DNA of 48,831 nucleotides, taken from NCBI GenBank assembly GCA_035530015.1, contig DATKVP010000280.1, positions 1 through 48,831 on the forward strand, given 5' to 3'. Under the pieces are notes generated by a model, which ran no database searches, was not told where the DNA came from, and saw only the letters and a program-made list of their open reading frames with translations. Source of the DNA: Anaerolineae bacterium. GTDB lineage: Bacteria > Chloroflexota > Anaerolineae > UBA7937 > B3-Chlor. Positions 5,551 through 45,767 of the stretch are shown here, piece by piece; position 1 is the first letter of the stretch; every line of letters starts with the position of its first letter. The position numbers and the translations under genes are program-made.

Positions 5551-5761
5551 AGAGCCGTTCCTGCTTATTTCCAACACGGGGCCGGTGCGCTGCGCCAAGT
5601 GTGGGCGTGATATGCCCACCCCTGGTCGCATCGCGATCAAGACCATCGGCGACGCGCGGTACTACTGTGACTGTGTGACGGAGGACGAGATGCAGGGCAT
5701 CGTGGCGGAGTGGAACCAGTACATGGCGTTGGCCCAGATGCCGGACGCGAACCCACAATGA
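5543..5761 (+). CDS. small Cys-containing protein
   Basis: MTEEPF...RCAKCGRDM...YYCDC. GGAGG lies 6 nt upstream. It ends in an ATGA overlap with terL. Confidence 0.5.
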   Translation: MTEEPFLLISNTGPVRCAKCGRDMPTPGRIAIKTIGDARYYCDCVTEDEMQGIVAEWNQYMALAQMPDANPQ

Positions 5762-7131: not shown

Positions 7132-7140
7132 GAGGACAAG

Positions 7141-7539
7141 ATGAGCGAGACTGGATACCCGGAAAGCAAGGCGGTAAGGAAGACACAGGTGAGGACTCAG
7201 ACCGCCACGATCGCGGACGGCCAGACGGTTGCTGCGAGCGCCCTCGACAAGCAGGCGCATGACTTCTGCGCGCTCGAGGTGGACACCGAGTTCGACGGCA
7301 CAAACCTGCGCTTCGGTGTTGCGAACACGCTGGCCGAGGTCACAGACGGGCTTACGCTGGCTGATGACGGACTTTCGTGGGAGGGGACGCTCGTGGAGAT
7401 TGATTGCTCGACCTACCGCAAGCAGAGTTTTGACCCATCGAAGTTCGCAATGTGGCGCTACATCGTGCCCATTAGCGACACCCCGCAGAGCGGCGCTGCG
7501 TGCGTGGTCACTGGTTATTTCCGCGACTTCCGGTCGTGA
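7141..7539 (+). CDS. hypothetical protein
   Basis: 132-aa ORF with RBS GGAGGA before the ATG. No motif recognised. It lies between terL and the portal gene. Confidence 0.55.
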   Translation: MSETGYPESKAVRKTQVRTQTATIADGQTVAASALDKQAHDFCALEVDTEFDGTNLRFGVANTLAEVTDGLTLADDGLSWEGTLVEIDCSTYRKQSFDPSKFAMWRYIVPISDTPQSGAACVVTGYFRDFRS

Positions 7540-26895: not shown

Positions 26896-29800
26896 ATGCC
26901 GGACTTCAAGGGACTCTTCTCAGACCCAGAGTTCTACCAACTCAACGACGATGAGAGGACGCAGGCCTATCAGCAGCTCGCGGCCAGCGCGCCGGACATG
27001 CAGGACCTGTCCCCAGAGCAGCACAACCAGTTCTTCCGTGAGATGGTGCGCCTCAACGCTCCACAACAGCAGCAGATGCGCCTGTCCGGCGGGGAGATCG
27101 AGCGCATCACCGGGCAGCCAACGGACGTGGAACCCATGGTCGTGCGCGACGAGCGCCTGCTGGCCCCGCAGATACCGGAGGGCGTCGGAGCGCCGGAGGA
27201 GCAGCTCCCACAGACTGACATCGGCCGGGGGATGCTCAAGGGCGCGGAGCAGGTGGCACAGAGCGCCTACGATACCAACGCCCTGCTGGGCGCGCTCGGC
27301 GTAGCGCCGCGCACCGCTGGCGCAGAGGCGGGGCGTGTGGCTCAGGGCGTAAGCCAGATGGCCGGTCAAGTGCCGGACCCGGAGGGGCTGCTCGGTCAGA
27401 TCGCGCAGCACGGGTCGCTGACGGCCATGATGATGCTCGCCACGGCTCCAGCAATGGCCGCGGGAGGCGTCGGAGGCATCTCCGCGGCCGGGGCAGGCAG
27501 CGGAGGCCTGGAAGCGCTCATGGAGGCCGGTGGGGTCTTCAATCAGCTCAAACAGCAGGGCATGTCGGAGGAGGAAGCGCTGTCCAAGGCCGGTGATGAC
27601 TTCGTGAAGCAGGCCATGCTGCTGATCGGGACCGAGGCCGCCCAGGCTGGCATCCTCGGGAAGCTCGGTAAGGACGGCGTCAAGATCGCCAAGGAGATCA
27701 TCGAGCGAGCTGGGTCGAAGGTCGGCAGGAGGGCCGTGCTGGAGACCGGCAAGGCACTCGCCGGGGGAGCCGGAGTATGGGAGCTGAACCGGCAGTTCGA
27801 GGGCGCACAGGAGTGGCTCCAGGAGGGCATCAACCAGTCGGTCATGGAGACAGCCGGGATGTTCGACAACACGGAGCAGCAGAAGGAGGCCTACAAGGTT
27901 GGGAAGCTCATCGGCGGCGTGTTCGGGTTCGTCCCGGCGGCGGCCGGTGCCGCCATTGGTGTGGCAGAGGCACCAGGCGCGGCCATCCAGGGCGCGAAGA
28001 CCGTGAGGGCCGCGGAGCAGATCGGGAAGATCCGGGACATCATCGCCAACCCGGAGGAGGCGGCGCGAGAGGGCAAGATCGAGCTTACGAGGCCCCAGGG
28101 ACCAGATCCCAAGGAGGCCCGCTTCCGGGCTACCGAGACGCTGGACTACCTGACGACAGAGGAGCGCCAGACGTTCGCCCTCGGTGAGCAGCCACTGGAC
28201 GTGGAGGAGATCGCACGGCGCACCGAGCGCCCGGTGGAGGAAGTCAAGGGCGAGATCGACACGCTCGACCAGGCCGCGCAGGATCTCATCAGCCCGCCGC
28301 GGCAGCCGGCCCAGCCGGCCCCCGAGCACGAGGCTGTTCTCCGGGCCATATCTGACGGCATCGAAAAGACAGCGCAGGAGGCGGAGGCCATCGGGCAGCC
28401 CGAGCTGGCGGCAGATCGGCGCGCCAGGATCGGCAAGGTCCAGATTGTTGAGCCGCAAAATCTCTTCGAGCGCGGCGCGGTTGGAGTTGCGAAGATCGGT
28501 CGAAGCGACCGCAGGGTCGTTCTCTTCACACAGCCGCGTATCGAGGGTGAGCCGGTACACGGCGGCGTCTTCGTGAAACCTGGGCTCATCGCGATCGACG
28601 TAAGCGACGGGATCGCTCCGAGGGCCATCATCGGGACAATCTTCCACGAGGTGGTTCACGACGCGAAGGTCAGCAACCCGGAGCTGTACGCTGGCGTCAT
28701 GGAGGCCATCAAGGGCACACCACTGTGGCAGAAGTCGGAAGACACCCTCCTGGGCGAGGTCAACGACGATGAGATCTTCGCGCACGTCATGGAGCAGTCG
28801 CACGTCGCCACCGACGTCCTGTACGCGCTGGCGAACTACGCTGCCGTTGAGGACATGGCCAAGGCACCGAGCAGGGTTCGGGCCGTCATCGAGTACCTCA
28901 CTGGGCTGTTTCGAGCTGTCGCCGGCAAGCTGAGGTTGACCTCGGACCTGGACGGCAAGAACCTGAAGCAGATGAAGCGCATCAGTGCGCTGTTCGCAGA
29001 CCCAGAGACAAAACGAAACGCGGCCAAGGCGATCCTGGAGCTGACCGACATGCTCAAGGCCGCGCCACAGGAGGCACAGGGTGAGGTAACGGAGGGACCG
29101 CAGTTCTCGCGGACGTTCTCACAGCTTCGTCAGGACGAGGGGATAACTCCACGGGGGCTGGACTCCATCAGCACGGAGACGAAGCGCTTCTTTGAGGTCA
29201 AGGAAAGCCTATTCAAAGACCTGCGTAAGGCCGGCGTTCCATCGGACGAGGCCTACGAGAGGGCGGCCGAGGGTGCCGACACGTGGGTGCGGAAGAACAT
29301 GAAGATCCTTGACGAGGAGGACCTAGACGACGAGCAGAAGATGCTCGTGGACTACGCCCAGGGTCTCGGAGTGCAGGTCAACTTCTACGAGGGCGGACAC
29401 AAGATGGCCGGAGGCCACTTCATGACCGAGGGGCAGATCTGGATCAACAACGGCACGAAGACACTGTGGACGTTCCGGCAGCTCGTGGCGCACGAGATGA
29501 TGCACGACTTCAAGCGCAGACACCCGGCGCTCTGGCGCAAGATTTTAAGCAAGGCGATCGAGCTTATGCCGGAGGAGTGGAAGGCCACCAGAGAGGAGGT
29601 TCTCAAGCTCGACTCTTACAAGATGCTTACTGGTGACAAGCTCGACAACGAGGTGTTGGCGTTCCTGATCCACAACAACGCAAACGATTTTTGGGGCGCT
29701 GTCCTGAAGGCCGGCAGCGAGGAGAACGCCCCGGTTGCGTTCAGGCGTTTCTTCACGTGGGTCGGCGAGTTTGTCAAGAAGCTCAGTGGACCCATGTTTG

Positions 29801-32800
29801 AGTGGGCAAAGAGCGTCGGCATCATCGGCATCGCTACTGACATGACGTCCCCCTCGGAGCAGTTGGGGCGCTTCGTTGTCGAGCAGTTTACAAGGGGGAC
29901 GGTGAAGGACGGAGAGTACCAGGTCTACAACCCGCAGGCGCACGAGAAGCGTGTCGCCGAGAAGAAAGCGACCATGAAGAAGGCAATCACACAACAACTC
30001 TCTCGGCATGCGCCGCTTGCGAAGCGATTCGCAGCAGACCTGGAAAGAGGCATCGTCCCTGAGCAGCCTGAGCAGATCCCGCTGTTCTCCACAGAGCGTG
30101 TGGGTTACCCGCCGCTGGCACAGACCCCCGCTGAGCTACGCACGTGGCGCGCCAAGCTCGCGAAGATGGTCTGGCGCGGAGTCAAGGGCAAGATGTGGTA
30201 CGAGCTGTCGGCCGCGGCAATACTCCAGATGTCCGGCGGGAACCTCGAGACGGCACGTAAGTTCACTAGACTGGTTGCCGTCTACTCACCCCAGACCGGC
30301 GTGATGACCAACTGGCACCGCGCACTTACAGCCTGGCAGCGATACATGGCTGGATACTCCAAGAGCGACTTTCTCAAAGAGCGACTCGGTAACGATGACA
30401 ACCACCAGAAGGCCGCGGCCATCCTCTACGACGACGCAGCGTGGGACGGGGAGAAGACCAACAGCTTCTTCAGTAACCTGTTCACCCTGCTCGACTCTGA
30501 GGTACCGGACCGCGCCACCATCGACCTGTGGATGATGCGGGCAATGGGGTTCTCAGGGGACGCTCCAAGCCCCACACAGTACAGGGCCATGGAGAAGGAA
30601 GTGAAGCGCCTGGCCAAGAAGCTCGACGTCGAGACGCACCAGGCTCAGGCCATGATCTGGGTCTACGCCAAGTCGGTGTGGGAAAGCAAGGAAGTGAAGG
30701 AGGCCGCGTACGCTGAAGCGGCGAAGCGGGACATGACCACACACGTGCCCAAGGTCGCCAACGGGAAGATCGTGAAGGACAAGCGCGGCAAGGTCATGAT
30801 GACCTCCACGCCTGAGTTCGAGGCGCTGTACAGGGGGACGTTCAACGCTGCGGTCAAGCGGGACCTCGGAGCCGACGTGACGCTGTACCCGATCTCAGAG
30901 CAGTCCATGACGACGTTCGCGACTGGGTTGGAACGCCGAGTGGCGACGATCTCCATGGAGGCCATCCCCGGCGTGGGGTGGTTCAAGAATCTGTCCAGCG
31001 CAGACATATCAACCAAGGTCTGGTTCACGCTTGGAGTTGAGCAGGCGCTCGTGGACGAGGTCGGCGACATCATCGGTCAGGAGATGGGCATCAGCCCGGT
31101 CGCGGACATCAACATGATGCTGCTTGGCAACTCCGCGTACTACGACGGTGGACGCATTCAGGTCAATCCGAGTAGACAGATCAAGGTCCCGGCGGCCGCC
31201 AAGGGCGGTGCCGAGAGCAGCTACATGTGGGACGCGGCCAGCAAGGACCAGGTCACGCTGTACGCCGTCATCCGAGGGATGCTCACGGGCCAGGAATCGG
31301 TCGCCGGCTACCGCAGGTTCGATCAGAACCCGGTGGTCGAAGAGCGCAACATGGCCGAACTGAGGATTGGAAATCGTCTGAGCTACGACCAACAGACGGA
31401 GCTGGTGGAGAAACTCACGAACGTCGTGAAGAGCCGCAGTGGGAAGCTCCAGGGGTGGGAGGTGGCGCTGTACCCAACTGAAGACGGCGTGGCGTTCATG
31501 AACACCACCGCGGCCAACATGACCAACCTCGAGTTCCATGACGTGGTCAAGGAGACCATCAGTGAGCTGAGTTTCAAGAAGGGTGCTAAAATGAGCACCT
31601 GGGCCGCGGACACGTTCTACGTGGAGGCCGAAAACGACACAGGGGAGGTAGACACCTATGGGCAAATCATCGCAGGGAGAACGGACATACTCAGAAGGGT
31701 GGAGGATCGGGTCGCCGATAAACTCTCGAAGCACTATCTTGCAGCGCAGGACAGGGGACTCGGAGACGCCCCAGAGTGGGCCGTTGCCTACAGAGACACG
31801 GAAACGACTCTTCGACGAGATGCTAAAAGCTACACGCACTACTGGCACTTCTCGGTCGCGGACGTAACCGATGAAGGTATCAAGCGAGATTTTGCGGGAA
31901 CTGGAGCCACTGGCCAAGAGGGACAACGTTTTCGTTTTGATCCGAATACCGGAAAGCTGGATCCAGAGAGTGCTGTTATCCATCTGTACCTGCCTACCGC
32001 ACGCGCTGAGGCGGCGGTTGTATCCAAGGCTTCGTTTATCAACAAGGTTATTGCCGATCTCCGCCTTATTCCCACCGACAGCGCAGGACTAGGTGACCTA
32101 TATCGTAAACACAACGGCGACGCCGTGGCCGTGGCTACTGAGCTACGGTCCATGGGCTACGACGGTATCGTGGACGTGGACCGAGGGATGGTGCAGGTCA
32201 ACCGCGACATCGACGTGTCTGAACTGGGAGAAGGACACGAGCTGACACCGAAGGAGCGACGCGCGTGGAAGGGCGCTCTGAGGCTGGAGGATATGGAGGA
32301 GGGCGAGAGCTATGACCACATCCGAGTCCCCCGTGTCCAGGAACTGAAGCGCGCTGACGTGGAGCATGTTGCCTCTCGGTTGACCGACGACGGTGTGGCG
32401 TACTTCCCCAAGGGCACCAATGAGCGCATGGTCAAGCAGTACTTTGACGAGGTGAGGTCAACGTCTGTTGGCCTCGTGGCCACGAAACCGAGGCGTCCGC
32501 AGTTCTCCACCAGCATCGTAGACCAGCACCAGGTCCCCGTCGGAGACATGAACGTCGTAGACGACGAGGTTGCGTACGGCACGCGGTACGCCACGCAGTC
32601 CGGCCCCGGCTGGAGCCTGCCTGGCATGGACCGATGGGACTGGTTCGTAAAATGGGCACAGGACAGTCTCGTTCAATTCAAACGCTTAAATGATGTGTTC
32701 ACGGACCACGGAATCGAGATCGGTGAGGAGATCAACGTCCGTCTGGCCGAGGAGCTGTACCACGGCAAGGTACAGGAGGCCACGAAGCGCATCGACGAGA

Positions 32801-35424
32801 AGTACCAGCAGCCACTACTGAGAGCCCTGCGAGCGCTTTCCAAGAGCAGGGCTGAGACGGAAGCAGATCTGCTCGCCAAGTTCGACCTGTACCTCCACGC
32901 GCGCCACGCGTCCGAGCGCAACGCGCACATCAGGGAGGTGTGGCACACCCGCAAGCTGGAGCAGGCGCAGTTCCACAAGAACAAGATCCAGGACAAGCTT
33001 GCGATCTACAAAGATGAGCTGAAGGACGCCGAGGGTAAGCTGCACAAGAAGCGCCTGGAGAACGCCATCAAGTTCTGGGAGATGCGGCTGGTCTCCGCCG
33101 AGCGCACCATCGAGACGATCGTCAACCAAAAGGACCTCGACTCCGGCATGAGCAACGCCGAGGCGATCGGTGTCTTCCAAAGCACGCGCATAGATGGGCT
33201 CGACAAGAGGTTCAGTGAGCTGGCACGACAGTACGTGGACACGATGCTCAAGGAGCGCCTGGACGCGCTGTACAGTGAGGGCCTGGTTGACGAGAAGACC
33301 TACAAGGCCGTGGCCAAGTACAAGCACTACGTGCCGCTGAAGGGCAAGTTCATTGAGGGTGACCTCGAGGAAATGATCGAGATGTACCACGCGTCTTCGT
33401 CTGGGTTCGACATCCGCGGCGCTGAGCTGCCGTTCGTCACCGGCCGGGAGAAGGGCAGCAAGATCAACCCGATCCTCGCGCAGGCGTTCGTGGACACCCT
33501 GTCCGCCACTGACCGCATCGAGCGCAACCGAGTGGCTGTGGCGCTGCTCGGGCTGGCCGAGGAGCACCCAAACCAGAACCTCTGGGAGGTCAACAAGACC
33601 GTCAAGAAGAGGATCTTCGACAAGAAGACCGGTACAGTCAAGGAGGTCGAGGACTGGTTCGCTCGCAACGAGGCCAACGTCATCGCCGCCAAGCGTGACG
33701 GGCAGACGTACTACGTGACCCTGAAAGATCGTGGCCTGGCTGAGGCCATGAAGGGGCTCGGTATCGAGAACCTCTGGAAGTGGGTGCGTGGAGTGCGTGT
33801 CGTCATGCGTACGCTGGCCCAGCTCTACACCACGTGGAACCCCGACTTCATCCTGACGAACTTCGCCCGTGACTGGCAGCAGGCGATCGTCAGCTCCACG
33901 ACTGACATGGGCTCGAAGGCCGCAGTTGAGGTCTCCAAGGAGGCGTTCAAGGCCGTGCGTGGCATCCTCGCAGCCAACTTCCCAGACGCCCTTGGGAAGC
34001 TGACCAACGAGTACACTGCCGAGTACCACGAGCTGAAGGAAGCCGGCGGCAAGGTGGGGTTCTTCGGGATGCGTGGTATCGACGACATGCAGCGGGCCAT
34101 CATCAACGACATGAAATCAGGGCACCAGGCGGCCACAATGCGCGGTCTCCGCAGGATCGGCAACTACATCGGGTCAATCAACGAGGCCACCGAGAACGGC
34201 ATCCGGCTCGCCACGTACGTGGTGGCCAAGCGACACGGTGCGACCAGGGCGCAGGCCGCGAGCCTGGCCAAGAACGTGTCGGTGAACTTCAACCGGCGTG
34301 GTGACGTTGGTGGTGCGATCGGCGCTGGGTACCTGTTCTTCAACGCTGGGGTGCAGGGCGTAGACAGGTTCTGGAAGTCGATGAAGACCCCCAGCGGCCA
34401 GAAGCTCGCCGCGATGTACCTGGGGATCGGCTTCATGACGGCAGTGTGGTCGCGTGCCACCATGGGTGACGACGACGACGGAGAGCCCAGGTACGACAAG
34501 ATTTCAAACTTCACCAAGATGAGGAACTGGATCATCGGCATCCCAGGCACCGACGGTGAGTTCGTACAGATCCCGATGCCATACGGTTTTGGAGTGTGGG
34601 GTCAGCTCGGAAAGGAGCTGGAGCATCTGATCTTCTCAGGAGACGATCGGCTAGAGGCGGCCGGTGAGGCCGCGCTGCGAATGCTCTCCGGGCTGACCAC
34701 GCATTTCTCTCCCATTGGTGAAACGAGCTTCGAGAACGGATGGTACGCCATGGCGCGGCCGATCATCCCCACACTGGCGGAGCCGTGGACCGACGTCCTC
34801 GCGAACGAGACCTACTGGGGCGGCAAGATCTACCCGGCGAAAGCACCGTGGGACAACCGTTCGGATTCAGCCAGGCACTACCCCGGCAGGACCGTGACCG
34901 AGCGGCTGATGATCGGAGCGACAAGCAAGCTGAACTACTGGACGGGTGGGAGCGAGTACCGCTCCGGCATCATAGACCTCAATCCCAACGCGCTGACGTA
35001 CATTCTCGATAGCTACATTGGCCCCACCGGGGGCTCCCTTAAACGTCCCATCAACCTCATCCAAAAGAAATGGGCGGGGGACGACACGACGTGGAACGAC
35101 TGGATCATCCTGCGCCGGTTCCTCGGCGAGACCGCACCACAGTACTACGTGCCCGGCGAGTTCTACGACGCCGTCGAGGACGTTACGTCCGCCGCAGACG
35201 AGCTGGAGTGGTACAAGAAGGGCAACGGCAGCCGCGACGACTACAGGAGGTGGAGCGACAGGCACGGGTGGAAGGTGGGGCTCGATAAAAGTTCTCGGCA
35301 AGCCCAGAAGGCGCTGCGTGAAATTCGGAAGTCCTCCTCGTTGAGCGACCAGGAAAAGCGGGACAGGTCGCTGGCGATACAGCGTGGTTTCATAAAGAGG
35401 TACTTGAACTCAGAGAAGCGCTAG
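26896..35424 (+). CDS. giant 2842-aa protein with two zincin-like HExxH modules (polyvalent / ejected virion protein candidate)
   Basis: Single uninterrupted ORF with GGGAG 5 nt before ATG 26896. HEVVH at 28645-28659 and HEMMH at 29491-29505 sit in similar contexts. Gly/Ala-rich hydrophobic N-terminal segments. A terminator follows. Confidence 0.8.
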   Translation: MPDFKGLFSDPEFYQLNDDERTQAYQQLAASAPDMQDLSPEQHNQFFREMVRLNAPQQQQMRLSGGEIERITGQPTDVEPMVVRDERLLAPQIPEGVGAPEEQLPQTDIGRGMLKGAEQVAQSAYDTNALLGALGVAPRTAGAEAGRVAQGVSQMAGQVPDPEGLLGQIAQHGSLTAMMMLATAPAMAAGGVGGISAAGAGSGGLEALMEAGGVFNQLKQQGMSEEEALSKAGDDFVKQAMLLIGTEAAQAGILGKLGKDGVKIAKEIIERAGSKVGRRAVLETGKALAGGAGVWELNRQFEGAQEWLQEGINQSVMETAGMFDNTEQQKEAYKVGKLIGGVFGFVPAAAGAAIGVAEAPGAAIQGAKTVRAAEQIGKIRDIIANPEEAAREGKIELTRPQGPDPKEARFRATETLDYLTTEERQTFALGEQPLDVEEIARRTERPVEEVKGEIDTLDQAAQDLISPPRQPAQPAPEHEAVLRAISDGIEKTAQEAEAIGQPELAADRRARIGKVQIVEPQNLFERGAVGVAKIGRSDRRVVLFTQPRIEGEPVHGGVFVKPGLIAIDVSDGIAPRAIIGTIFHEVVHDAKVSNPELYAGVMEAIKGTPLWQKSEDTLLGEVNDDEIFAHVMEQSHVATDVLYALANYAAVEDMAKAPSRVRAVIEYLTGLFRAVAGKLRLTSDLDGKNLKQMKRISALFADPETKRNAAKAILELTDMLKAAPQEAQGEVTEGPQFSRTFSQLRQDEGITPRGLDSISTETKRFFEVKESLFKDLRKAGVPSDEAYERAAEGADTWVRKNMKILDEEDLDDEQKMLVDYAQGLGVQVNFYEGGHKMAGGHFMTEGQIWINNGTKTLWTFRQLVAHEMMHDFKRRHPALWRKILSKAIELMPEEWKATREEVLKLDSYKMLTGDKLDNEVLAFLIHNNANDFWGAVLKAGSEENAPVAFRRFFTWVGEFVKKLSGPMFEWAKSVGIIGIATDMTSPSEQLGRFVVEQFTRGTVKDGEYQVYNPQAHEKRVAEKKATMKKAITQQLSRHAPLAKRFAADLERGIVPEQPEQIPLFSTERVGYPPLAQTPAELRTWRAKLAKMVWRGVKGKMWYELSAAAILQMSGGNLETARKFTRLVAVYSPQTGVMTNWHRALTAWQRYMAGYSKSDFLKERLGNDDNHQKAAAILYDDAAWDGEKTNSFFSNLFTLLDSEVPDRATIDLWMMRAMGFSGDAPSPTQYRAMEKEVKRLAKKLDVETHQAQAMIWVYAKSVWESKEVKEAAYAEAAKRDMTTHVPKVANGKIVKDKRGKVMMTSTPEFEALYRGTFNAAVKRDLGADVTLYPISEQSMTTFATGLERRVATISMEAIPGVGWFKNLSSADISTKVWFTLGVEQALVDEVGDIIGQEMGISPVADINMMLLGNSAYYDGGRIQVNPSRQIKVPAAAKGGAESSYMWDAASKDQVTLYAVIRGMLTGQESVAGYRRFDQNPVVEERNMAELRIGNRLSYDQQTELVEKLTNVVKSRSGKLQGWEVALYPTEDGVAFMNTTAANMTNLEFHDVVKETISELSFKKGAKMSTWAADTFYVEAENDTGEVDTYGQIIAGRTDILRRVEDRVADKLSKHYLAAQDRGLGDAPEWAVAYRDTETTLRRDAKSYTHYWHFSVADVTDEGIKRDFAGTGATGQEGQRFRFDPNTGKLDPESAVIHLYLPTARAEAAVVSKASFINKVIADLRLIPTDSAGLGDLYRKHNGDAVAVATELRSMGYDGIVDVDRGMVQVNRDIDVSELGEGHELTPKERRAWKGALRLEDMEEGESYDHIRVPRVQELKRADVEHVASRLTDDGVAYFPKGTNERMVKQYFDEVRSTSVGLVATKPRRPQFSTSIVDQHQVPVGDMNVVDDEVAYGTRYATQSGPGWSLPGMDRWDWFVKWAQDSLVQFKRLNDVFTDHGIEIGEEINVRLAEELYHGKVQEATKRIDEKYQQPLLRALRALSKSRAETEADLLAKFDLYLHARHASERNAHIREVWHTRKLEQAQFHKNKIQDKLAIYKDELKDAEGKLHKKRLENAIKFWEMRLVSAERTIETIVNQKDLDSGMSNAEAIGVFQSTRIDGLDKRFSELARQYVDTMLKERLDALYSEGLVDEKTYKAVAKYKHYVPLKGKFIEGDLEEMIEMYHASSSGFDIRGAELPFVTGREKGSKINPILAQAFVDTLSATDRIERNRVAVALLGLAEEHPNQNLWEVNKTVKKRIFDKKTGTVKEVEDWFARNEANVIAAKRDGQTYYVTLKDRGLAEAMKGLGIENLWKWVRGVRVVMRTLAQLYTTWNPDFILTNFARDWQQAIVSSTTDMGSKAAVEVSKEAFKAVRGILAANFPDALGKLTNEYTAEYHELKEAGGKVGFFGMRGIDDMQRAIINDMKSGHQAATMRGLRRIGNYIGSINEATENGIRLATYVVAKRHGATRAQAASLAKNVSVNFNRRGDVGGAIGAGYLFFNAGVQGVDRFWKSMKTPSGQKLAAMYLGIGFMTAVWSRATMGDDDDGEPRYDKISNFTKMRNWIIGIPGTDGEFVQIPMPYGFGVWGQLGKELEHLIFSGDDRLEAAGEAALRMLSGLTTHFSPIGETSFENGWYAMARPIIPTLAEPWTDVLANETYWGGKIYPAKAPWDNRSDSARHYPGRTVTERLMIGATSKLNYWTGGSEYRSGIIDLNPNALTYILDSYIGPTGGSLKRPINLIQKKWAGDDTTWNDWIILRRFLGETAPQYYVPGEFYDAVEDVTSAADELEWYKKGNGSRDDYRRWSDRHGWKVGLDKSSRQAQKALREIRKSSSLSDQEKRDRSLAIQRGFIKRYLNSEKR
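32454..32475. repeat. palindrome family copy 4: GAGGTCAACG-TC-TGTTGGCCTC
   Basis: Read directly. It lies inside the giant ORF and is translated as RSTSVGL. Confidence 0.85.
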
Positions 35425-35477
35425 GTCATACTAGCCGTGACCTCCTTTCTTCGAGGCCCGCAACGGGCCGCATTAAA

Positions 35478-35522: not shown

Positions 35523-35551
35523 TTGACACCAGTTGGTAAAGGTGAGACAAT
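35523..35551 (+). promoter_or_regulatory. candidate sigma70-like promoter for the replication/early arm
   Basis: TTGACA (35523-35528), 17-nt spacer, GACAAT (35546-35551). It lies directly after the terminator and before the SNF2 gene. Confidence 0.45.
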
Positions 35552-38624: not shown

Positions 38625-39046
38625 TCGACACTGCACTGATCCGTAGATTCATGGACCACCGCATTCGACGCTTTCGTGCCGAGGATGACCTGAGGGCCAT
38701 GAAGAACGAAGAGAAAGACATGGCGAGACAGATCAACTCGATGCTTGCGTCAGAAAGCGCCGGCAAGGTCAACATCGATGGCCACACCGTGTATCCCATG
38801 CGGGTGATGCGCGCCAGCACCGTGGGCGGCTGCATGCCGATGCTCATTGACGGATTCAAGAACCTCGGGATGGACTCCATCGTCAGTCAGACGATCAACG
38901 CGCAGACGCTCACCGGGTTCGTGAACGAGTACGACCCGGACCGGATGATGAGCGCCGAAGAACTGGCGGAGAAGCTGCCCGACGAGATCCGAGAGTTCAT
39001 CAACCTGTACGAGGACCTCATGGTCGGTGTTCGGAAGAGCGGATGA
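38621..39046 (+). CDS. hypothetical protein
   Basis: 141-aa ORF with GGGGGA upstream and an ATGA overlap. Confidence 0.55.
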   Translation: MIDTALIRRFMDHRIRRFRAEDDLRAMKNEEKDMARQINSMLASESAGKVNIDGHTVYPMRVMRASTVGGCMPMLIDGFKNLGMDSIVSQTINAQTLTGFVNEYDPDRMMSAEELAEKLPDEIREFINLYEDLMVGVRKSG

Positions 39047-39231
39047 ACGACGCCACGTACATTGACATCTTGGAAGGTGTTACAATAGCGGCCTGGAAAC
39101 TGAGGAAGAAGGCCACACAAAAAAACCTGGACAGGCTTGACAAGGCCCTGCGTCGATACGACAGGATACTGGGATGGAACGGTGTCCTCCGAGACTCGAA
39201 AACAGGACAATGGAAAGGACGTGTGCTGTGA
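39043..39231 (+). CDS. hypothetical small protein
   Basis: 62-aa ORF with an ATGA overlap. Confidence 0.5.
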   Translation: MNDATYIDILEGVTIAAWKLRKKATQKNLDRLDKALRRYDRILGWNGVLRDSKTGQWKGRVL

Positions 39232-39566
39232 GTGACATTGTGGAGCGGTTGCGGAACCTAGCAAAAGCCTATCCGATTGATGTTTTCCCAGAGCCAGCAC
39301 CGGGCCAACACGGGAAAACGGTCGATCAATGTTCGGCGTCGATGGGGCGACACTTCTCCGGGGTGTTTACTGAAGCCGCCGTTCGCATCGAGGAACTGGT
39401 CGCATTCGCGCACATGCTTGGGATCTGGGCACAGGACGGCTTCGTGTCGTGGTCACTGGTTGACAAGGACTCACTGTACAAAATAGGTGAGGCGTACATG
39501 AAGCTGTTCCCGGCCAGGGATATTGATAAGGTTTTTGATGAGGTGCTGGAGGCCGACGATGAGTGA
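39228..39566 (+). CDS. small protein, first 'SD...DDE' cassette
   Basis: GTG AGT GAC start overlaps the upstream stop (GTGA). The product (V)SDIVERLRNL... ends in ...VLEADDE*. Confidence 0.5.
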   Translation: MSDIVERLRNLAKAYPIDVFPEPAPGQHGKTVDQCSASMGRHFSGVFTEAAVRIEELVAFAHMLGIWAQDGFVSWSLVDKDSLYKIGEAYMKLFPARDIDKVFDEVLEADDE

Positions 39567-39663
39567 CGGCTTATTTATCGTTGTGACAGTGATCTCGGTT
39601 GCTGTTTTGTTGCCGGTGCTCATAAGAGTTTACTCTGACTGGATTGATAGGTGGTTGAGATGA
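39559..39663 (+). CDS. 34-aa single-TMD miniprotein (not in the ORF track)
   Basis: Hand translation: MSDGLFIVVTVISVAVLLPVLIRVYSDWIDRWLR*. It starts in the conserved ATGAGTGAC junction and ends in an ATGA overlap with the next gene. Confidence 0.45.
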   Translation: MSDGLFIVVTVISVAVLLPVLIRVYSDWIDRWLR

Positions 39664-39917
39664 GTGACATTGCAGAACAACTGCTGCTCTATCGGAGGGA
39701 TGTAGACATTCAGTGGGGCGTCCTGTACGACAAGATCGGCGAAGCCGCCGACGAGATCAAGCGCCTTCGCTCTGCCCTTGAGGAAATCAGCCTCGGCAAA
39801 GGGCCGTACAATCGCAACCCCCTGATCCACGCGGAAAACATAATTGAGGACATGAAGGCCATCGCCATCGGAGCACTCAATGGGACGTGGAAGCCGGAGG
39901 CCGACGGTGGGCTGTGA
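39660..39917 (+). CDS. small protein with AADEIKRLR motif
   Basis: MSDIAEQLLLYRR...EAADEIKRLRSALEE. Paralogous motif to the 40160 gene. Confidence 0.55.
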   Translation: MSDIAEQLLLYRRDVDIQWGVLYDKIGEAADEIKRLRSALEEISLGKGPYNRNPLIHAENIIEDMKAIAIGALNGTWKPEADGGL

Positions 39918-39921
39918 CACG

Positions 39922-40167
39922 ATGGTCACCTGCGAAAGCTGCCGCGAAACCATTGACTGCGGCTACGGCTCCTATCGCTCATTCAACCTCCGGGAAGAAC
40001 GTGGAATAAAAAAACACCTCCACTGCAAAGGACCAGTAACCGCATGGTCCCACGACTGGTGCTACCACAAAGGCGACGACCTGATGATCCAGGCACGAGC
40101 CGGTGGCGACCTGTATATCGAAAACGAGAAAACGTTCAAGCAAATACCGGAGGCCGACGATGAGTGA
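39922..40167 (+). CDS. small Cys-rich protein
   Basis: MVTCESCRETIDCGYG...HCKG... ends in ...IPEADDE* within the conserved junction. Confidence 0.5.
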   Translation: MVTCESCRETIDCGYGSYRSFNLREERGIKKHLHCKGPVTAWSHDWCYHKGDDLMIQARAGGDLYIENEKTFKQIPEADDE

Positions 40168-40528
40168 CCAAATCAGCACATACGCCTACAGGGACATTGC
40201 TGAAAACACAACATGGCTCAGGGCACAGGCTGAATACTGGAACAAGGTGAAAAATATTGATGTGAGTACCATTCCTGGTCTGCTCGCAGCAGCAGCCGAC
40301 GAAATCGAACGCCTCCGCGCCGAGCTTGCCAACTGTCAAAACGGTGCCGAGATTCAGCGCGAGATGATCGACGCGATGTCCCGCAACTACGACGCAGCGC
40401 ATGGAGGTGACGCCGAGCCGCCACTGTGGGTATTGGAATGTGGTTCCTGTGGCGGCACTCATTGGGCAGAATACACGTCACCCTGGGGCAAAAAGACTTG
40501 CCGAGACTGTGGTGCGGACGATGAGTGA
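40160..40528 (+). CDS. small protein with AADEIERLR motif and C-terminal zinc ribbon
   Basis: MSDQISTY...AAADEIERLRAELANC...CGSCGG...CRDCGADDE*. Confidence 0.55.
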   Translation: MSDQISTYAYRDIAENTTWLRAQAEYWNKVKNIDVSTIPGLLAAAADEIERLRAELANCQNGAEIQREMIDAMSRNYDAAHGGDAEPPLWVLECGSCGGTHWAEYTSPWGKKTCRDCGADDE

Positions 40529-40715
40529 CACAAGCTACGACGAAGATGTTGTTGCCGCGTTGGTGCTTCAGCACCTTGGGGAATGTCCAGATCTCGGCAC
40601 TGGTCTTTTCCGGGCCAGGGTGACGTGGTGCGCCCTCGGGGAATGCCCAGAGCGGAGAGAAGCAGACCGTCGAATCCGTGACCTCGACGCAGCGAAGGGA
40701 GGCGACGATGAGTGA
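40521..40715 (+). CDS. 64-aa small protein
   Basis: MSDTSYDED... has an internal repeat LGECPD / LGECPE and ends in ...GGDDE*. Confidence 0.5.
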   Translation: MSDTSYDEDVVAALVLQHLGECPDLGTGLFRARVTWCALGECPERREADRRIRDLDAAKGGDDE

Positions 40716-41187
40716 CCTAAGACACGTCTACGATGACGGGTGGGACGCGCTGAAATCAGTTCTGTACCCGGAGTTTGGCAAAGATTACATGATCGCCAAG
40801 GAGCCGATGGTCTGGGATGCGGCTCACAAACTCAAGCGACAAGACGACCGCATCGAGGAGTTGTTGGCAGGGATTGGGCGGTGCGAACGGAGAGCCGAGG
40901 CAGACATGAATACAATCCGTGCCCTGAGAAAAGAAAACGAAAAGCTGGTAGACGAATGCTGCCAACTCAAAGAGGGGTACACGTCAATCCGTGTTCAGTT
41001 TGCCACGTTTACCAAGACGGTTGGTGGAGCCTTCGCGAATGCGTTCAAGGAGGGATTCATGGAGGGCTGGATGGATGGGAAGCATGGAACCAGCCCAGAC
41101 CCATCCCCTGTGGTGGATGCCGCATGGGAGAAAAGCAAGCACATCAACTTCATCAACATGGTTGACTGCGGAGGTGGCGATGAGTGA
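40708..41187 (+). CDS. hypothetical protein
   Basis: MSDLRHVYDDGW... has a coiled-coil middle and ends in ...CGGGDE*. Confidence 0.55.
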   Translation: MSDLRHVYDDGWDALKSVLYPEFGKDYMIAKEPMVWDAAHKLKRQDDRIEELLAGIGRCERRAEADMNTIRALRKENEKLVDECCQLKEGYTSIRVQFATFTKTVGGAFANAFKEGFMEGWMDGKHGTSPDPSPVVDAAWEKSKHINFINMVDCGGGDE

Positions 41188-41638
41188 CGTGAGACGTGTG
41201 ATTGTGGACAGCACCAAGGAGATACTGGAGGAGGCGTCCGGTTTCATGTTGGAGGCTGAAGGAACTGATTTCATAGTTGATGACCCCGGCGGCACCCACG
41301 CCCTACTCCCGTGGGAGGAGTACACTCGGCTGCTTGATGCAATTCGGATATTTGAATTGGGGTGGCCCGAAGATGACGCCCCGGAGGAGGAGTATGAGCG
41401 AATGCAGCGGGTGGCCGAGGAGTTCGGAAGCACATGGGGGCATTTAACAGATCAGCAGAGGGGACATTTTGCGGAGGTTTCGCCGTTCGCAAGGAAATCC
41501 CATAACGCCGAGCTGGAGAGTGTGGACGAGCCGTGCGAGACGTGCGGGGGGAGCGGGAAGGTCGCTTCGCCGCCGTCGGCGTTTGGTGTTGACCCGCCAA
41601 CTGAACTATGCCCCGACTGTGGCGCGGTGTGGAAATGA
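41180..41638 (+). CDS. hypothetical protein with C-terminal zinc ribbon
   Basis: MSDVRRVIVD...CETCGGSGKV...CPDCGAVWK*. Confidence 0.55.
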   Translation: MSDVRRVIVDSTKEILEEASGFMLEAEGTDFIVDDPGGTHALLPWEEYTRLLDAIRIFELGWPEDDAPEEEYERMQRVAEEFGSTWGHLTDQQRGHFAEVSPFARKSHNAELESVDEPCETCGGSGKVASPPSAFGVDPPTELCPDCGAVWK

Positions 41639-41940
41639 CTAGCATCAACGTAATGGGTGTGCCGTACACGCTCGAGCTGGTGGACGTGGTGGACGACCAG
41701 GACGATACCATCATCGGCCGGGTGGTGTTCGAGGAACAGAAGATCCAGGTCAGGTCCTCCATGGGACCTGAGGCCGTCAGAGCCACCGTGCTCCACGAGC
41801 TGATCCACGCCATCGACAACGAGTGCAACCTCGGCCGCAACGGGCACCTCCCCGAGGCAATAGTGTCGCGTGTCGCGTCATCCCTGTTCATCACACTTGC
41901 GCTAAACCCGTCACTCGCGAAACGGCTGTTCGATGTATAG
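41635..41940 (+). CDS. small HExxH protein (putative zinc metallopeptidase)
   Basis: 101 aa with ATVLHELIHAIDNE. ATGA overlap at the start. Confidence 0.5.
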   Translation: MTSINVMGVPYTLELVDVVDDQDDTIIGRVVFEEQKIQVRSSMGPEAVRATVLHELIHAIDNECNLGRNGHLPEAIVSRVASSLFITLALNPSLAKRLFDV

Positions 41941-42978: not shown

Positions 42979-43692
42979 ATGTCCGACGCGATCGCGAAAG
43001 CTGGAACGTTCGCAGCCCTGGCCGTCCCCGAAGGTGACTTCGGGCTCCAGGACATCGTCACCATCAACATGGGCGGTCAGGGGATCGACCCCAACAAACT
43101 TGACCGTGTCAAGGTACCAAGCGGTGGCAACCTGGCGTGGGAGGTCATCGACGAAAACGGAGAGCCAGAGCCCAGGAAAGAGCTGGTCGGCGTCATCGTT
43201 GGTCAGTTCCCGACCAGGGTGTACTACGCAACCGAGTACACCGGAGGCAACGAGTCCCCGGACTGCTCCAGCCAGGACGGCATCAACGGAGTACCACAGG
43301 AGTCCGGCCTCGGGTACGGTGGCAAGTGCTCGTCGTGCCCCAAGTCCCAGTGGGCCAACGGCCAGAAGCCGGAGTGCTCGCAGCGCAAGAAGCTGCTGCT
43401 GCTTGAACCGGACTCTATCCTGCCGCTGGTCATCGACGTGCCACCCACGTCGCTCGACCCCGTGGACAAGTACCTGCTTCGCATCACGAAGAAGAAGGTC
43501 CTGTTCTTCCAGTGTGTGACCAGCCTCAAGCTGTCCAAGGAGAAGAACAAGGGCGGCATTGAATATGCGCGCATCGCCCCTGGGTTCGTCCGGGTCTTGG
43601 ACGCTGACGAGCGGGCCTCGGCGTTCGCCATCTACAAGGGCCTGTCACAGGCGTTCTCGTCGGCGTCTCTGGAAGACGAGCCCCCGTACTAG
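42979..43692 (+). CDS. hypothetical protein with a 4-Cys cluster and acidic C-terminal tail (ssDNA-binding or recombination candidate)
   Basis: The cluster is SPDCSS...GGKCSSCPKSQW...PECSQ. The tail ...SASLEDEPPY* resembles the acidic/aromatic tails of SSBs. Strong RBS TAGGAGG. The functional call is speculative. Confidence 0.3.
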   Translation: MSDAIAKAGTFAALAVPEGDFGLQDIVTINMGGQGIDPNKLDRVKVPSGGNLAWEVIDENGEPEPRKELVGVIVGQFPTRVYYATEYTGGNESPDCSSQDGINGVPQESGLGYGGKCSSCPKSQWANGQKPECSQRKKLLLLEPDSILPLVIDVPPTSLDPVDKYLLRITKKKVLFFQCVTSLKLSKEKNKGGIEYARIAPGFVRVLDADERASAFAIYKGLSQAFSSASLEDEPPY

Positions 43693-45733: not shown

Positions 45734-45767
45734 GGGTGAGGAGGGTTTTGCCTCCCCCTTTTTTTTT
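45734..45767 (+). terminator. rho-independent terminator
   Basis: GGAGG (45740-45744) / CCTCC (45751-45755), with additional G:C pairs possible, followed by a T9 run (45759-45767). Confidence 0.7.

What the first reader, a model, noticed from the sequence alone, without database searches (positions are those of the whole stretch)
39228..41188. Seven consecutive gene junctions share the overlapping stop/start ATGAGTGA(C)
Junctions at 39228, 39559, 39660, 40160, 40521, 40708 and 41180 all contain (A/G)TGAGTGAC. Five of the upstream ORFs end in ...D-E-TGA (EADDE, EADDE, GADDE, GGDDE, GGGDE). Every downstream ORF starts with M/V-S-D in the +2 frame through an 8-nt overlap, or a 4-nt overlap at two junctions. 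Two junctions sit within an identical 20-mer, GGAGGCCGACGATGAGTGAC (39548-39567 and 40149-40168). Two others differ only slightly: GGAGGCGACGATGAGTGAC at 40698-40716 and GGAGGTGGCGATGAGTGAC at 41170-41188. The Gly/Glu-Ala codons of the upstream C-terminus provide the GGAGG Shine-Dalgarno sequence for the next gene. The cassettes themselves are otherwise dissimilar small proteins. Several have zinc ribbons, two share an AADEI(E/K)RLR motif, and one is a 34-aa TMD peptide. A reiterated junction of this length could be an obligatory termination-reinitiation coupling signal. It could also act as a short homology 'linker' that allows cassette shuffling, loss and gain by recombination, as proposed for boundary sequences in mosaic phages. 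Arrays of small, fast-evolving early genes are also where anti-defence genes are typically found.
Basis: partly seen in the sequence, partly recalled or inferred. Interest (0 to 1): 0.65.

Follow-up and report, generated by a model that had tools for sequence, protein, structure and literature searches.

The report
Standardised stop/start junction between phage cassettes
A run of small genes of unknown function in an uncultivated phage is stitched together by one repeated overlapping stop/start signal, and related phage fragments show genes swapped exactly at that signal, so it probably serves both coupled translation and gene shuffling.

Summary
(A/G)TGAGTGAC occurs seven times in the window, all on the + strand within 39228-41188 (1.4 expected; 0 of 100 shuffles reach 7). 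Each is a gene junction.

The octamer carries TGA in both frames other than that of the ATG, so it ends an upstream gene in either frame (4-nt or 8-nt overlap). All seven second codons are the rare Ser codon AGT.

The core design is not special to this phage. The exact 20-mer GGAGGCCGACGATGAGTGAC sits at ...EADDE*/MSD... junctions of unrelated gene pairs in 28 viral and 99 cellular loci. That is convergence on a coupled-translation junction.

The array-specific uniformity is not explained by convergence. Three related metagenomic fragments (L252-L254) and one distant relative (L258) use the same junction but hold different cassettes in a different order. Identity of 91-93% runs up to ATGAGTGAC and, in the two alignments that reach it, stops right after it. 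Tail-plus-junction blocks of 22-45 nt are attached to unrelated cassettes.

Most likely this is a translational-coupling junction that also acts as a short recombination linker. It is a new variant of known ideas. Coupling itself is inferred, not shown.

The parts
39043..39231 (+). C0, a 62-aa ORF. Its TGA (39229-39231) lies inside the first junction.
39228..39236 (+). Junction 1, GTGAGTGAC, with a 4-nt overlap (GTGA). It has a weak SD-like AAGGA upstream and is the least certain start.
39228..39566 (+). C1, 112 aa (MSDIVERLRNL...EADDE). Some pipelines start it at ATG 39342 instead.
39548..39567 (+). Junction 2, GGAGGCCGACGATGAGTGAC, with an 8-nt overlap.
39559..39663 (+). C2, a 34-aa hydrophobic (putative transmembrane) mini-protein.
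39660..39668 (+). Junction 3, ATGAGTGAC, with a 4-nt overlap (ATGA) and AGGTGG upstream.
39660..39917 (+). C3, 85 aa, carrying the AADEIKRLR motif. L252 holds a version that is 94% identical in protein from residue 32 but has a different N-terminus.
39896..39918 (+). Variant junction GGAGGCCGACG GTG GGC TGT GAC, with a GTG start at 39907 and an 11-nt overlap. L252 has the canonical junction at the homologous site.
39907..40167 (+). C4, an 86-aa Cys-rich protein with tail EADDE.
40149..40168 (+). Junction 4, GGAGGCCGACGATGAGTGAC, with an 8-nt overlap.
40160..40528 (+). C5, a 122-aa composite. The N-terminal module has the AADEIERLR motif (homolog P0004). The C-terminal 41-aa zinc-ribbon module is found on a different protein, P0005.
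40403..40412 (+). GGAGGTGACG inside C5. This is where homology to L252 begins, at a junction-like SD sequence that marks the module boundary.
40510..40529 (+). Junction 5, TGGTGCGGACGATGAGTGAC, with an 8-nt overlap. Homology to L252 ends exactly at 40529.
40521..40715 (+). C6, 64 aa, with tail GGDDE. Its last ~34 nt plus the junction recur on the unrelated cassette Y in L254.
40697..40716 (+). Junction 6, GGGAGGCGACGATGAGTGAC, with an 8-nt overlap.
40708..41187 (+). C7, 159 aa. L253 and L254 carry it at about 92% protein identity from codon 47 onward, with a different N-terminal module.
41164..41188 (+). Junction 7, GACTGCGGAGGTGGCGATGAGTGAC (tail DCGGGDE), with an 8-nt overlap. The identical 22-26 nt sit at three successive junctions of L253.
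41180..41638 (+). C8, 152 aa, with a CxxCGG...CPDCG zinc ribbon. Its end is joined to C9 by a plain ATGA overlap.

Best explanation
The region is a hypervariable array of small accessory genes. It lies inside the long early or replication operon of a novel phage of about 49 kb.

Each gene is a cassette that begins with ATG-AGT-GAC. Most end in an acidic tail (G/A)-D-D-E, whose codons supply a GGAGG Shine-Dalgarno sequence 5-6 nt before the next ATG.

ATGAGTGA has TGA at offsets +1 and +5. A ribosome arriving in either of the two other frames therefore terminates on top of the next start codon. It most likely re-initiates there, held by the Shine-Dalgarno pairing (translational coupling; inferred).

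Because every cassette carries the same 9-nt core, extended to 20-45 nt with the tail, the junction also offers short homology. Cassettes are exchanged, duplicated, fused or lost at this homology, both between related phages and between positions in the array. The comparative pattern is shown here. The recombination mechanism behind it is inferred.
For: Anatomy of the array:
- All 7 motifs lie in 2 kb on one strand, against 1.4 expected in the whole window.
- The called frames have the best codon score.
- No promoter or convincing terminator lies inside the array. A promoter-like site lies at 35523 and terminator-like sites at 35423 and 45740.

Selection for the overlapping stop:
- AGT makes up 9.5% of Ser codons in the long ORFs of this genome, yet it is used at 7 of 7 second codons.
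- The non-overlapping MSD start at 42979 uses TCC instead.
- The same octamer serves 4-nt and 8-nt overlaps here and in relatives.

Generality of the design:
- The exact 20-mer is a ...EADDE*/MSD... junction in 28 of 28 viral loci and 99 of 99 cellular loci, between unrelated proteins.

Sharing beyond convergence:
- None of about 22 overlapping junctions elsewhere in this genome uses the motif.
- Across 122 unrelated GGAGG-N6-ATGAGTGAC sites the spacer is diverse. The chance that two share a spacer is about 0.003. Here three junctions share the spacer CCGACG.
- Extra same-strand ATGAGTGA sites cluster in phage loci (5.3 per 100 kb, against 1.2 on the opposite strand). They do not cluster in cellular loci (0.9 per 100 kb).

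Relatives:
- L252, L253 and L254 use the same junction at their boundaries. The exceptions are one ATGAGTAGTGAC variant in L253 and L254 and one plain TGATG join in L253. Cassette content and order differ from the window.
- Window homology ends exactly at the C of the motif for L252/C5 and L253/C7. For L252/C3 it ends at the start codon.
- The 25-mer of the C7|C8 junction sits between three different cassette pairs in L253.
- L253 and L254 are 99.8% identical over 1105 nt, then diverge about 28 nt before a junction. There L254 carries the tail and junction of window cassette C6 on the unrelated cassette Y.
- The distant relative L258 has an array of about 18 genes with 7 such junctions and its own repeated extended junction, CTGGAGGACCGATGAGTGAC.

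Other support:
- The cassettes are compositionally distinct from the other small genes of the phage (codon score p=6e-4, GC3 p=1.4e-4).
- In the distantly related phage THSA-485A, the interval between the SNF2 gene and the homolog of the 237-aa gene (window 42979-43692, phrog_23155) is about 1.7-1.8 kb. Here it is 5.8 kb.
Against: - Nothing here shows that translation of a downstream cassette depends on the upstream one. Four junctions have a strong SD and no junction shows a sequestering structure (z from -1.7 to +1.4), so independent initiation is possible.
- The comparative evidence rests on three short metagenomic fragments (1.2-2.1 kb) and one distant contig.
- Breakpoints at gene boundaries are expected from selection alone, whatever the recombination mechanism.
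- Other breakpoints lie inside cassettes, at the AADEIERLR/RIEEL motif and at an internal GGAGG. The junction is therefore not the only crossover site.
- Part of the MSD uniformity may be inherited. C1, C3, C5 and C7 may be old paralogs.
- Convergence can by itself produce identical 20-mers.
Confidence: 0.6

Rival explanations
1. The junction is only an efficient, convergently evolved translational-coupling site. It plays no part in recombination. Exchanges happen anywhere by illegitimate recombination, and selection keeps only those that fall at gene boundaries.
For: The identical 20-mer arises independently at more than 100 unrelated junctions, including ordinary cellular operons. Overlaps of 1, 4 and 8 nt are common in prokaryotes (bioRxiv 10.64898/2026.09.10.750558; PMC6728339). 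The literature holds that most phage mosaic joints lack conserved boundary sequences (PMC3029335). This genome uses overlapping junctions throughout.
Against: This does not explain why the motif is confined to the array (none of about 22 other overlapping junctions has it). It does not explain why 22-45 nt, including tail codons not needed for initiation (GACTGC..., GACGCAGCGAAG...), are identical on unrelated cassettes within and between genomes. It also does not explain why each lineage has its own repeated extended junction.
Confidence: 0.25
2. The repeated junction is simply inherited. The array is an old tandem multigene family whose members diverged beyond recognition, except for the start context (kept under selection) and a short helical motif.
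For: C1, C3, C5 and C7 share an (A)ADEIERLR-type motif at a similar distance from an MSD(I/L) N-terminus. hhalign gives 81% probability between two N-terminal-module alignments. L258 and L006 hold several clear paralogs with the same motif and start.
Against: The cassettes cannot be aligned end to end. Comparisons of C1, C3 and C7 against the profiles reach only 13-26% probability over 11-30 columns. Unrelated cassette types (the transmembrane mini-peptide C2, Cys-rich C4 and C6, zinc-ribbon C8, and the new cassettes X and Y) carry the same junction. Descent does not explain a recent replacement at a junction between genomes that are 99.8% identical.
Confidence: 0.12
3. The motif is a DNA- or RNA-level site for something else, such as a protein-binding, methylation or nuclease site or a structured RNA. 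Its position at gene starts would then be incidental.
For: The 9-mer is strictly invariant, including the C at the third-codon wobble position, at 7 of 7 sites. At unselected viral ATGAGTGA sites that base is C in only 29% of cases.
Against: Every copy is in phase with a start and a stop. The motif is strand-specific (L258 has 7 copies on + and 0 on -). There is no Rfam match, no conserved fold and no inverted repeat at the junctions. Variants keep the coding logic (ATGAGTAGTGAC, ATGGCGAGTGAC, GTGGGCTGTGAC) rather than a fixed site.
Confidence: 0.03

Closest known systems
Translational coupling by termination-reinitiation at overlapping stop/start codons (ATGA, TGATG; Huber et al. 2019, PMC6728339; review PMC12548453)
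   Same: The genes are co-directional in one operon, the stop overlaps the next start by 4 or 8 nt, and the SD lies inside the upstream coding sequence.
   Different: One invariant 9-mer is reused at 7-8 successive junctions. The octamer holds stops in both alternative frames, so one start context serves either upstream frame. The genes are small proteins of unknown function, not subunits of a known complex. Coupling was not measured here.
PeSL regulatory cassettes that mediate modular shuffling in hyperplastic regions of T4-type phages (Arbiol et al. 2010, PMC2839356; PMC4122927)
   Same: A short regulatory sequence is repeated between small non-essential genes of unknown function in a hypervariable region. 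Insertions, deletions and replacements between relatives have their ends in the repeat.
   Different: A PeSL is an intergenic early promoter plus a stem-loop terminator. Here the repeat is a translational signal (SD plus overlapping start and stop) embedded in coding sequence, with a 9-nt core that extends to 20-45 nt with the tail. It has no promoter, terminator or stem-loop. Mini-circles could not be tested.
Short conserved boundary ('linker') sequences proposed for mosaic phages (Susskind and Botstein; Clark et al.; as cited in PMC3029335)
   Same: Short homology at gene boundaries is flanked by non-homologous modules, and exchange joints fall within it.
   Different: Such sequences are reported as absent from most mosaic joints (PMC3029335). 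Here the boundary sequence is present at every junction of the array, and it has an evident function of its own in translation.
Tightly packed arrays of small early genes with ATGA overlaps in lambdoid phages, such as the nin region (recalled from memory, not checked here)
   Same: Small accessory genes sit in an early operon and are joined by overlapping stops and starts.
   Different: Those junctions are plain ATGA without an extended, invariant sequence.

Membership tests
Translationally coupled overlapping gene pairs | Co-directional neighbouring genes in one transcription unit | tested here: met
   All cassettes lie on the + strand. No promoter or convincing terminator was found between 35.5 and 45.7 kb.
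Translationally coupled overlapping gene pairs | The upstream stop codon overlaps or abuts the downstream start codon | tested here: met
   There are 4-nt overlaps at 39228 and 39660, 8-nt overlaps at five junctions and an 11-nt overlap at 39907.
Translationally coupled overlapping gene pairs | Downstream translation depends on translation and termination of the upstream gene | not testable with these tools
   This needs reporters or ribosome profiling. Indirect evidence only: the rare AGT codon is kept at 7 of 7 starts to preserve the stop. No SD-masking structure was found.
Recombination linkers / boundary sequences (including PeSL-type modular shuffling) | The same short sequence is repeated at module boundaries within a genome | tested here: met
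   Window. L253: 22-26 nt at three junctions. L258: CTGGAGGACCGATGAGTGAC at two junctions and a one-base variant at a third.
Recombination linkers / boundary sequences (including PeSL-type modular shuffling) | In related genomes the repeat is flanked by non-homologous modules, and homology ends in the repeat | tested here: met
   This rests on only three short fragments.
PeSL cassettes specifically | The repeat consists of an early sigma-70 promoter plus a stem-loop terminator | tested here: not met
   There are no promoter- or terminator-like sites at the junctions and no significant fold. The array works like PeSL shuffling but is not a member of that family.
Recent tandem duplication array | Units can be aligned end to end at the protein or DNA level | tested here: not met
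   All-against-all blastp finds only patches of 13-34 aa. DNA identity is confined to about -12 to +9 around the start. Profile comparisons are weak.
Integron-type gene cassettes | attC-like imperfect inverted repeats at cassette ends and an adjacent integrase | tested here: not met
   There are no inverted repeats at the junctions. No recombinase family was found among the neighbouring genes.

The most novel reading that the evidence does not exclude
ATGAGTGAC together with its SD-bearing acidic tail is a natural 'standard part'. It would be a frame-tolerant plug-and-play adaptor that lets GC-rich phages of several lineages (this one, L258, L006, L001/L004) insert, swap and fuse small accessory genes by short-homology recombination, while guaranteeing translation of the newcomer. 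Junction periodicity could then be used to find hypervariable accessory (possibly anti-defence) gene arrays, and missed mini-genes, directly from sequence.
Probability: 0.3. Interest if true: 0.7.

Novelty: new variant of a known kind. Interest (0 to 1): 0.5.

Why it matters
If the junction really does both jobs, it is one of the clearest sequence-level examples of the old 'linker' model of phage mosaicism. The linker would be a translation signal rather than a promoter or terminator. That would explain how phages can turn over small accessory genes quickly without losing their expression.

It also has practical uses:
- The motif marks real mini-genes that standard gene callers miss or truncate. 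Examples here are the 34-aa C2, the 64-aa C6, and the starts of C1 and C4.
- It flags hypervariable arrays worth screening for host-takeover or anti-defence activity.
- It suggests a compact natural design for polycistronic constructs.

If the junction is only a coupling site, the finding is ordinary.

Tried and rejected
- Close relatives were sought by megablast and tblastn against isolated phages, with no result. SNF2 gave at best 30% identity.
- IMG/VR scans with SNF2, the 237-aa protein (window 42979-43692, phrog_23155) and C7 gave one distant low-GC contig without the motif, or nothing.
- Both metagenome scans found nothing. That collection evidently lacks the small contigs that carry the relatives.
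- The word-index protein search returned only self hits for C8 and the DUF7307 protein, and a concatenated query failed outright. Relatives appeared only through the full HMMER search with C5.
- L257, a hit to the lineage junction, is a chance match in an RNA-virus polymerase contig.
- A jackhmmer run linking C5 to C7 was discounted, because mosaic proteins cause profile drift.
- An RF2-type or dnaX-type programmed frameshift was considered and rejected from the sequence. GAG-TGA is not slippery and the SD spacing fits initiation, not frameshifting.
- Known RNA families gave no match.
- Obligatory coupling through a masking hairpin gave no consistent structure. Only the variant junction 39872-39961 folds unusually well.
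- Pfam and PHROGs matched no cassette or relative.
Full report
**1. What the window is**

The 48,831-nt window is essentially a whole genome of an uncultivated tailed phage with 59% GC. Nearly all genes are on the + strand. The same sequence is a 48,831-nt NCBI record. It also occurs at 99.9% identity or more in ENA, JGI and Logan assemblies.

It has no close cultivated relative.

The finding lies in a long operon. A promoter-like site at 35523 follows a terminator-like hairpin after a 2,842-aa gene. The next good terminator-like site is at 45740. The operon encodes an SNF2 helicase, a DUF7307 protein, a phrog_23155 protein of 237 aa (window 42979-43692), a primase-polymerase-like protein and a UvrD helicase.

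Thermoanaerobacterium phage THSA-485A has the same arrangement of SNF2 followed by the homolog of the 237-aa gene. There only about 1.7-1.8 kb lie between them, against 5.8 kb here. The array therefore sits in an expandable slot of a conserved replication module.

**2. The observation**

RTGAGTGAC occurs seven times, all on the + strand between 39228 and 41188. Shuffles give 1.4 matches for the whole window on both strands, and 0 of 100 shuffles reach 7. Each copy is the start of one ORF and holds the stop of the preceding one.

The called frames score far better than the other two frames in codon usage. Each junction-defined ORF has been called by at least one public pipeline:

- C1 as 112 aa from GTG 39228
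- C4 as 86 aa from GTG 39907
- the 34-aa C2
- the 64-aa C6

It has the same SD and spacer as two canonical junctions, one extra codon and an 11-nt overlap. The relative L252 has the canonical ATGAGTGAC at the homologous position. Eight successive junctions therefore share one design.

Sequence conservation is confined to about -12 to +9 around the start codon. The flanks are at random-level identity.

**3. Anatomy and the coupling reading**

ATGAGTGA contains TGA at offset +1 and again at offset +5. These are the two frames other than that of the ATG. The window uses the first TGA at two junctions (4-nt overlap) and the second at five (8-nt overlap). Relatives use both as well.

AGT makes up only 9.5% of Ser codons in the long ORFs of this phage, yet it is the second codon at 7 of 7 junctions. 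The gene at 42979 also starts M-S-D but sits after a 36-nt gap, and it uses TCC. AGT is therefore kept for the stop codon it creates.

Four junctions have GGAGG 5-6 nt before the ATG, read as Glu-Ala or Gly-Gly in the upstream tail. The other three have weaker SD-like purine runs.

The genome uses -1, -4, -8 and -11 overlaps throughout. This fits general translational coupling as described in PMC6728339 and PMC12548453. Overlaps of 1, 4 and 8 bp are the common classes (bioRxiv 10.64898/2026.09.10.750558).

No motif junction has a significant RNA fold that would mask the start. Coupling is therefore plausible, but an obligatory dependence is not indicated. This step is inferred, not shown.

**4. 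The core design is convergent and general**

The exact 20-mer GGAGGCCGACGATGAGTGAC occurs in 28 IMG/VR contigs. In every case it is a ...EADDE*/MSD... junction, and the flanking proteins are unrelated.

It also occurs in 99 loci of bacterial and archaeal genomes, again always as that junction. In 87 of them both ORFs are at least 40 codons long. These loci include ordinary operons whose downstream proteins read like AddA/AddB-type helicases, CNNM/TlyC-type membrane proteins, a Der-type GTPase and glycerol kinase. These identifications were judged by eye from the N-terminal sequences and were not run against family libraries. About 30 of the loci are one orthologous Micromonospora locus.

Identity of a 20-mer is therefore not in itself evidence of shared ancestry.

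**5. What convergence does not explain**

- *Confinement to the array.* Within this genome the motif is confined to the array. None of about 22 other overlapping junctions has it. The four other 8-nt overlaps are ATGACTGA, ATGTATAG, ATGATTGA and ATGTCTAA.
- *Spacer sharing.* Among 122 unrelated GGAGG-N6-ATGAGTGAC sites the spacer is diverse. CCGACG accounts for 2 of 122, and the chance that two sites share a spacer is about 0.003. Three window junctions share it.
- *The base after the octamer.* At unselected viral ATGAGTGA sites this base is C in 29% of cases. Here it is C at 7 of 7.
- *Clustering in phages.* Phage loci that hold one such junction hold further same-strand copies at 5.3 per 100 kb, against 1.2 on the opposite strand. 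Cellular loci hold them at 0.9 per 100 kb. Arrays comparable to this one occur in unrelated phages:
  - L006 has six junctions, several EIERLRA-motif proteins and a position upstream of exonuclease/RecT-like genes.
  - L004 has three junctions in 260 nt, including a 28-aa membrane peptide.
- *Composition.* The cassettes differ from the other small genes of the phage. Median per-codon score is 0.015 against 0.15 (p=6e-4), and GC3 is lower (p=1.4e-4).

**6. Relatives**

A full HMMER search with C5 found two partial homologs.

- P0004 (101 aa) matches the N-terminal 98 residues of C5 but ends in DCGGGDE, which is the tail of C7.
- P0005 (152 aa) is a mosaic of four parts:
  - an N-terminus like that of C1 (MSDIVDELRDL)
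  - an AADEIERL motif
  - a zinc ribbon like that of C8
  - the last 41 residues of C5 (85% identity by blastp)

Their contigs are L252 (1.2 kb, from the same ENA study as the window) and L253 and L254 (2.1 and 1.2 kb, JGI). These contigs use ATGAGTGAC at their gene boundaries. The exceptions are one ATGAGTAGTGAC variant in L253 and L254 and one plain TGATG join in L253.

Gene order in the relatives differs from the window order C0 to C8:

| Contig | Gene order |
|---|---|
| L252 | C8-like, then the C1/C5 mosaic P0005, then a cassette with a C2-like N-terminus and the C3 body, then new cassette X |
| L253 | C8-like, then C5 N-terminal-like (P0004), then C7-like, then new cassette Y, then C4-like |

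At the DNA level:

| Relative segment | Window segment | Identity | Where homology ends |
|---|---|---|---|
| L252 598-718 | 40403-40529 | 93% | At the C of the motif; starts exactly at an internal GGAGGTGACG |
| L252 742-899 | 39752-39909 | 91% | At the next start codon |
| L253 865-1208 | 40845-41188 | 91% | At the C of the motif; Y then replaces C8 |

Further observations from the relatives:

- The 25-mer GACTGCGGAGGTGGCGATGAGTGAC lies between C7 and C8 in the window. It lies between three different cassette pairs in L253.
- L253 and L254 differ at 2 of 1,105 positions, then diverge about 28 nt before a junction. From there L254 carries the tail and junction of window cassette C6 (91% over 45 nt), attached to the unrelated cassette Y.
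- Other breakpoints fall inside cassettes, at the AADEIERLR/RIEEL motif.
- The distant relative L258 (25-kb IMG/VR contig, 40% protein identity or less over longer matches) has an array of about 18 genes. It contains many motif-bearing paralogs, a 32-aa membrane peptide and a C8-like gene. It has seven ATGAGT(G/A)A junctions, all on one strand, and its own repeated extended junction CTGGAGGACCGATGAGTGAC.
- In several independent assemblies of the window phage, contigs end inside the array. This weakly hints at population heterogeneity there.

**7. Interpretation**

The best reading has three parts.

- The ATGAGTGAC core with an SD-bearing acidic tail is a translational-coupling junction of a widespread, convergent type.
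- In this phage lineage the array is an old, fast-turning-over family region. It holds MSD...AADEIERLR small proteins, Cys-rich or zinc-ribbon proteins and membrane mini-peptides. Its junctions are kept uniform.
- The uniform junction, with 20-45 nt of tail, is a preferred site of homologous or short-homology exchange. Other short conserved patches share this role.

The closest precedent is PeSL-mediated modular shuffling in T4-type hyperplastic regions (PMC2839356, PMC4122927), together with the older boundary-sequence model (as cited in PMC3029335). Here the repeated element is a translational signal inside coding sequence rather than a promoter plus terminator. I therefore class the finding as a new variant of a known kind.

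The main caveats are these:

- There is no functional test of coupling.
- The comparative material is sparse.
- Selection alone would place surviving breakpoints at gene boundaries.
- Part of the MSD uniformity may come from paralogy.

Cassette functions remain unknown.

Noticed in passing
window 26896-35424 (+): There is a single 2,842-aa ORF with DUF7178 and LPD38 (large polyvalent protein-associated) domains. It ends just before a terminator-like hairpin (35423-35443) and a promoter-like site (35523-35551).
   Followed up: no
window 39872-39961 (+): The one junction that has lost the canonical motif (C3/C4) lies in an unusually stable predicted RNA structure (-38.6 kcal/mol, z=-3.5, 0 of 200 shuffles). 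This may be an alternative way of controlling initiation of C4.
   Followed up: partly
window 40160-40528 (C5); L252 259-717 (P0005): C5 is a composite. Its last 41 aa form a zinc-ribbon module. This module recurs at 85% protein identity (blastp) at the end of a different mosaic protein. At the DNA level it is bounded by GGAGGTGACG on the left and ATGAGTGAC on the right. This suggests that former cassettes can fuse in frame.
   Followed up: partly
window C1, C3, C5, C7; L258 8266-11834; L006 (reverse strand) 5746-7284; L022: A short helical motif, (A)A-D-E-I-E-R-L-R, recurs about 30-50 residues from an MSD(I/L)... N-terminus in many small phage proteins of unrelated contigs. No Pfam or PHROG family covers it. 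It also coincides with internal recombination breakpoints.
   Followed up: partly
window 39559-39663 (C2); L004 60-146; L258 9003-9101: Membrane mini-peptides of 28-34 aa, each starting at an ATGAGT(G/A)AC junction, recur inside such arrays in three otherwise unrelated phages.
   Followed up: no
window 41635-41940 (+): C9, directly after the array, has an HExxH motif and matches phrog_1233 (E=1.5e-13; a related PHROG family is annotated as a peptidase). It is joined to C8 by a plain ATGA overlap.
   Followed up: no
L251 (Meiothermus phage MMP7) 7545, 8389, 16878: Another GC-rich phage reuses a different 8-nt overlap (ATGGCTAG twice, ATGCCTAG once). This suggests that lineages have their own preferred junction sequence.
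   Followed up: no
L152-L249 (about 30 Micromonospora genomes): The exact 20-mer junction is conserved across many Micromonospora species, between a long gene ending ...TEADDE and a 134-aa gene starting MSDLSTRPIAA. Here it is a stably inherited cellular coupling junction.
   Followed up: no
window 39188-41528 (ends of L259, L260, L031, L032, L033, L256): Contigs from four independent samples that are otherwise identical to the window end inside the array. Five of the ends fall between 40124 and 40687. This may reflect strain-level structural variation, or only low coverage.
   Followed up: partly
L011 6062-6102 and L016 1342-1382: Two otherwise dissimilar IMG/VR phages share 41 identical nt spanning the same 20-mer junction and the first 9 codons (MSDRIDELV). 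They share a second identical 24-nt island inside the gene, with unrelated sequence in between. This is a mosaic pattern like the one seen in the window's lineage.
   Followed up: partly
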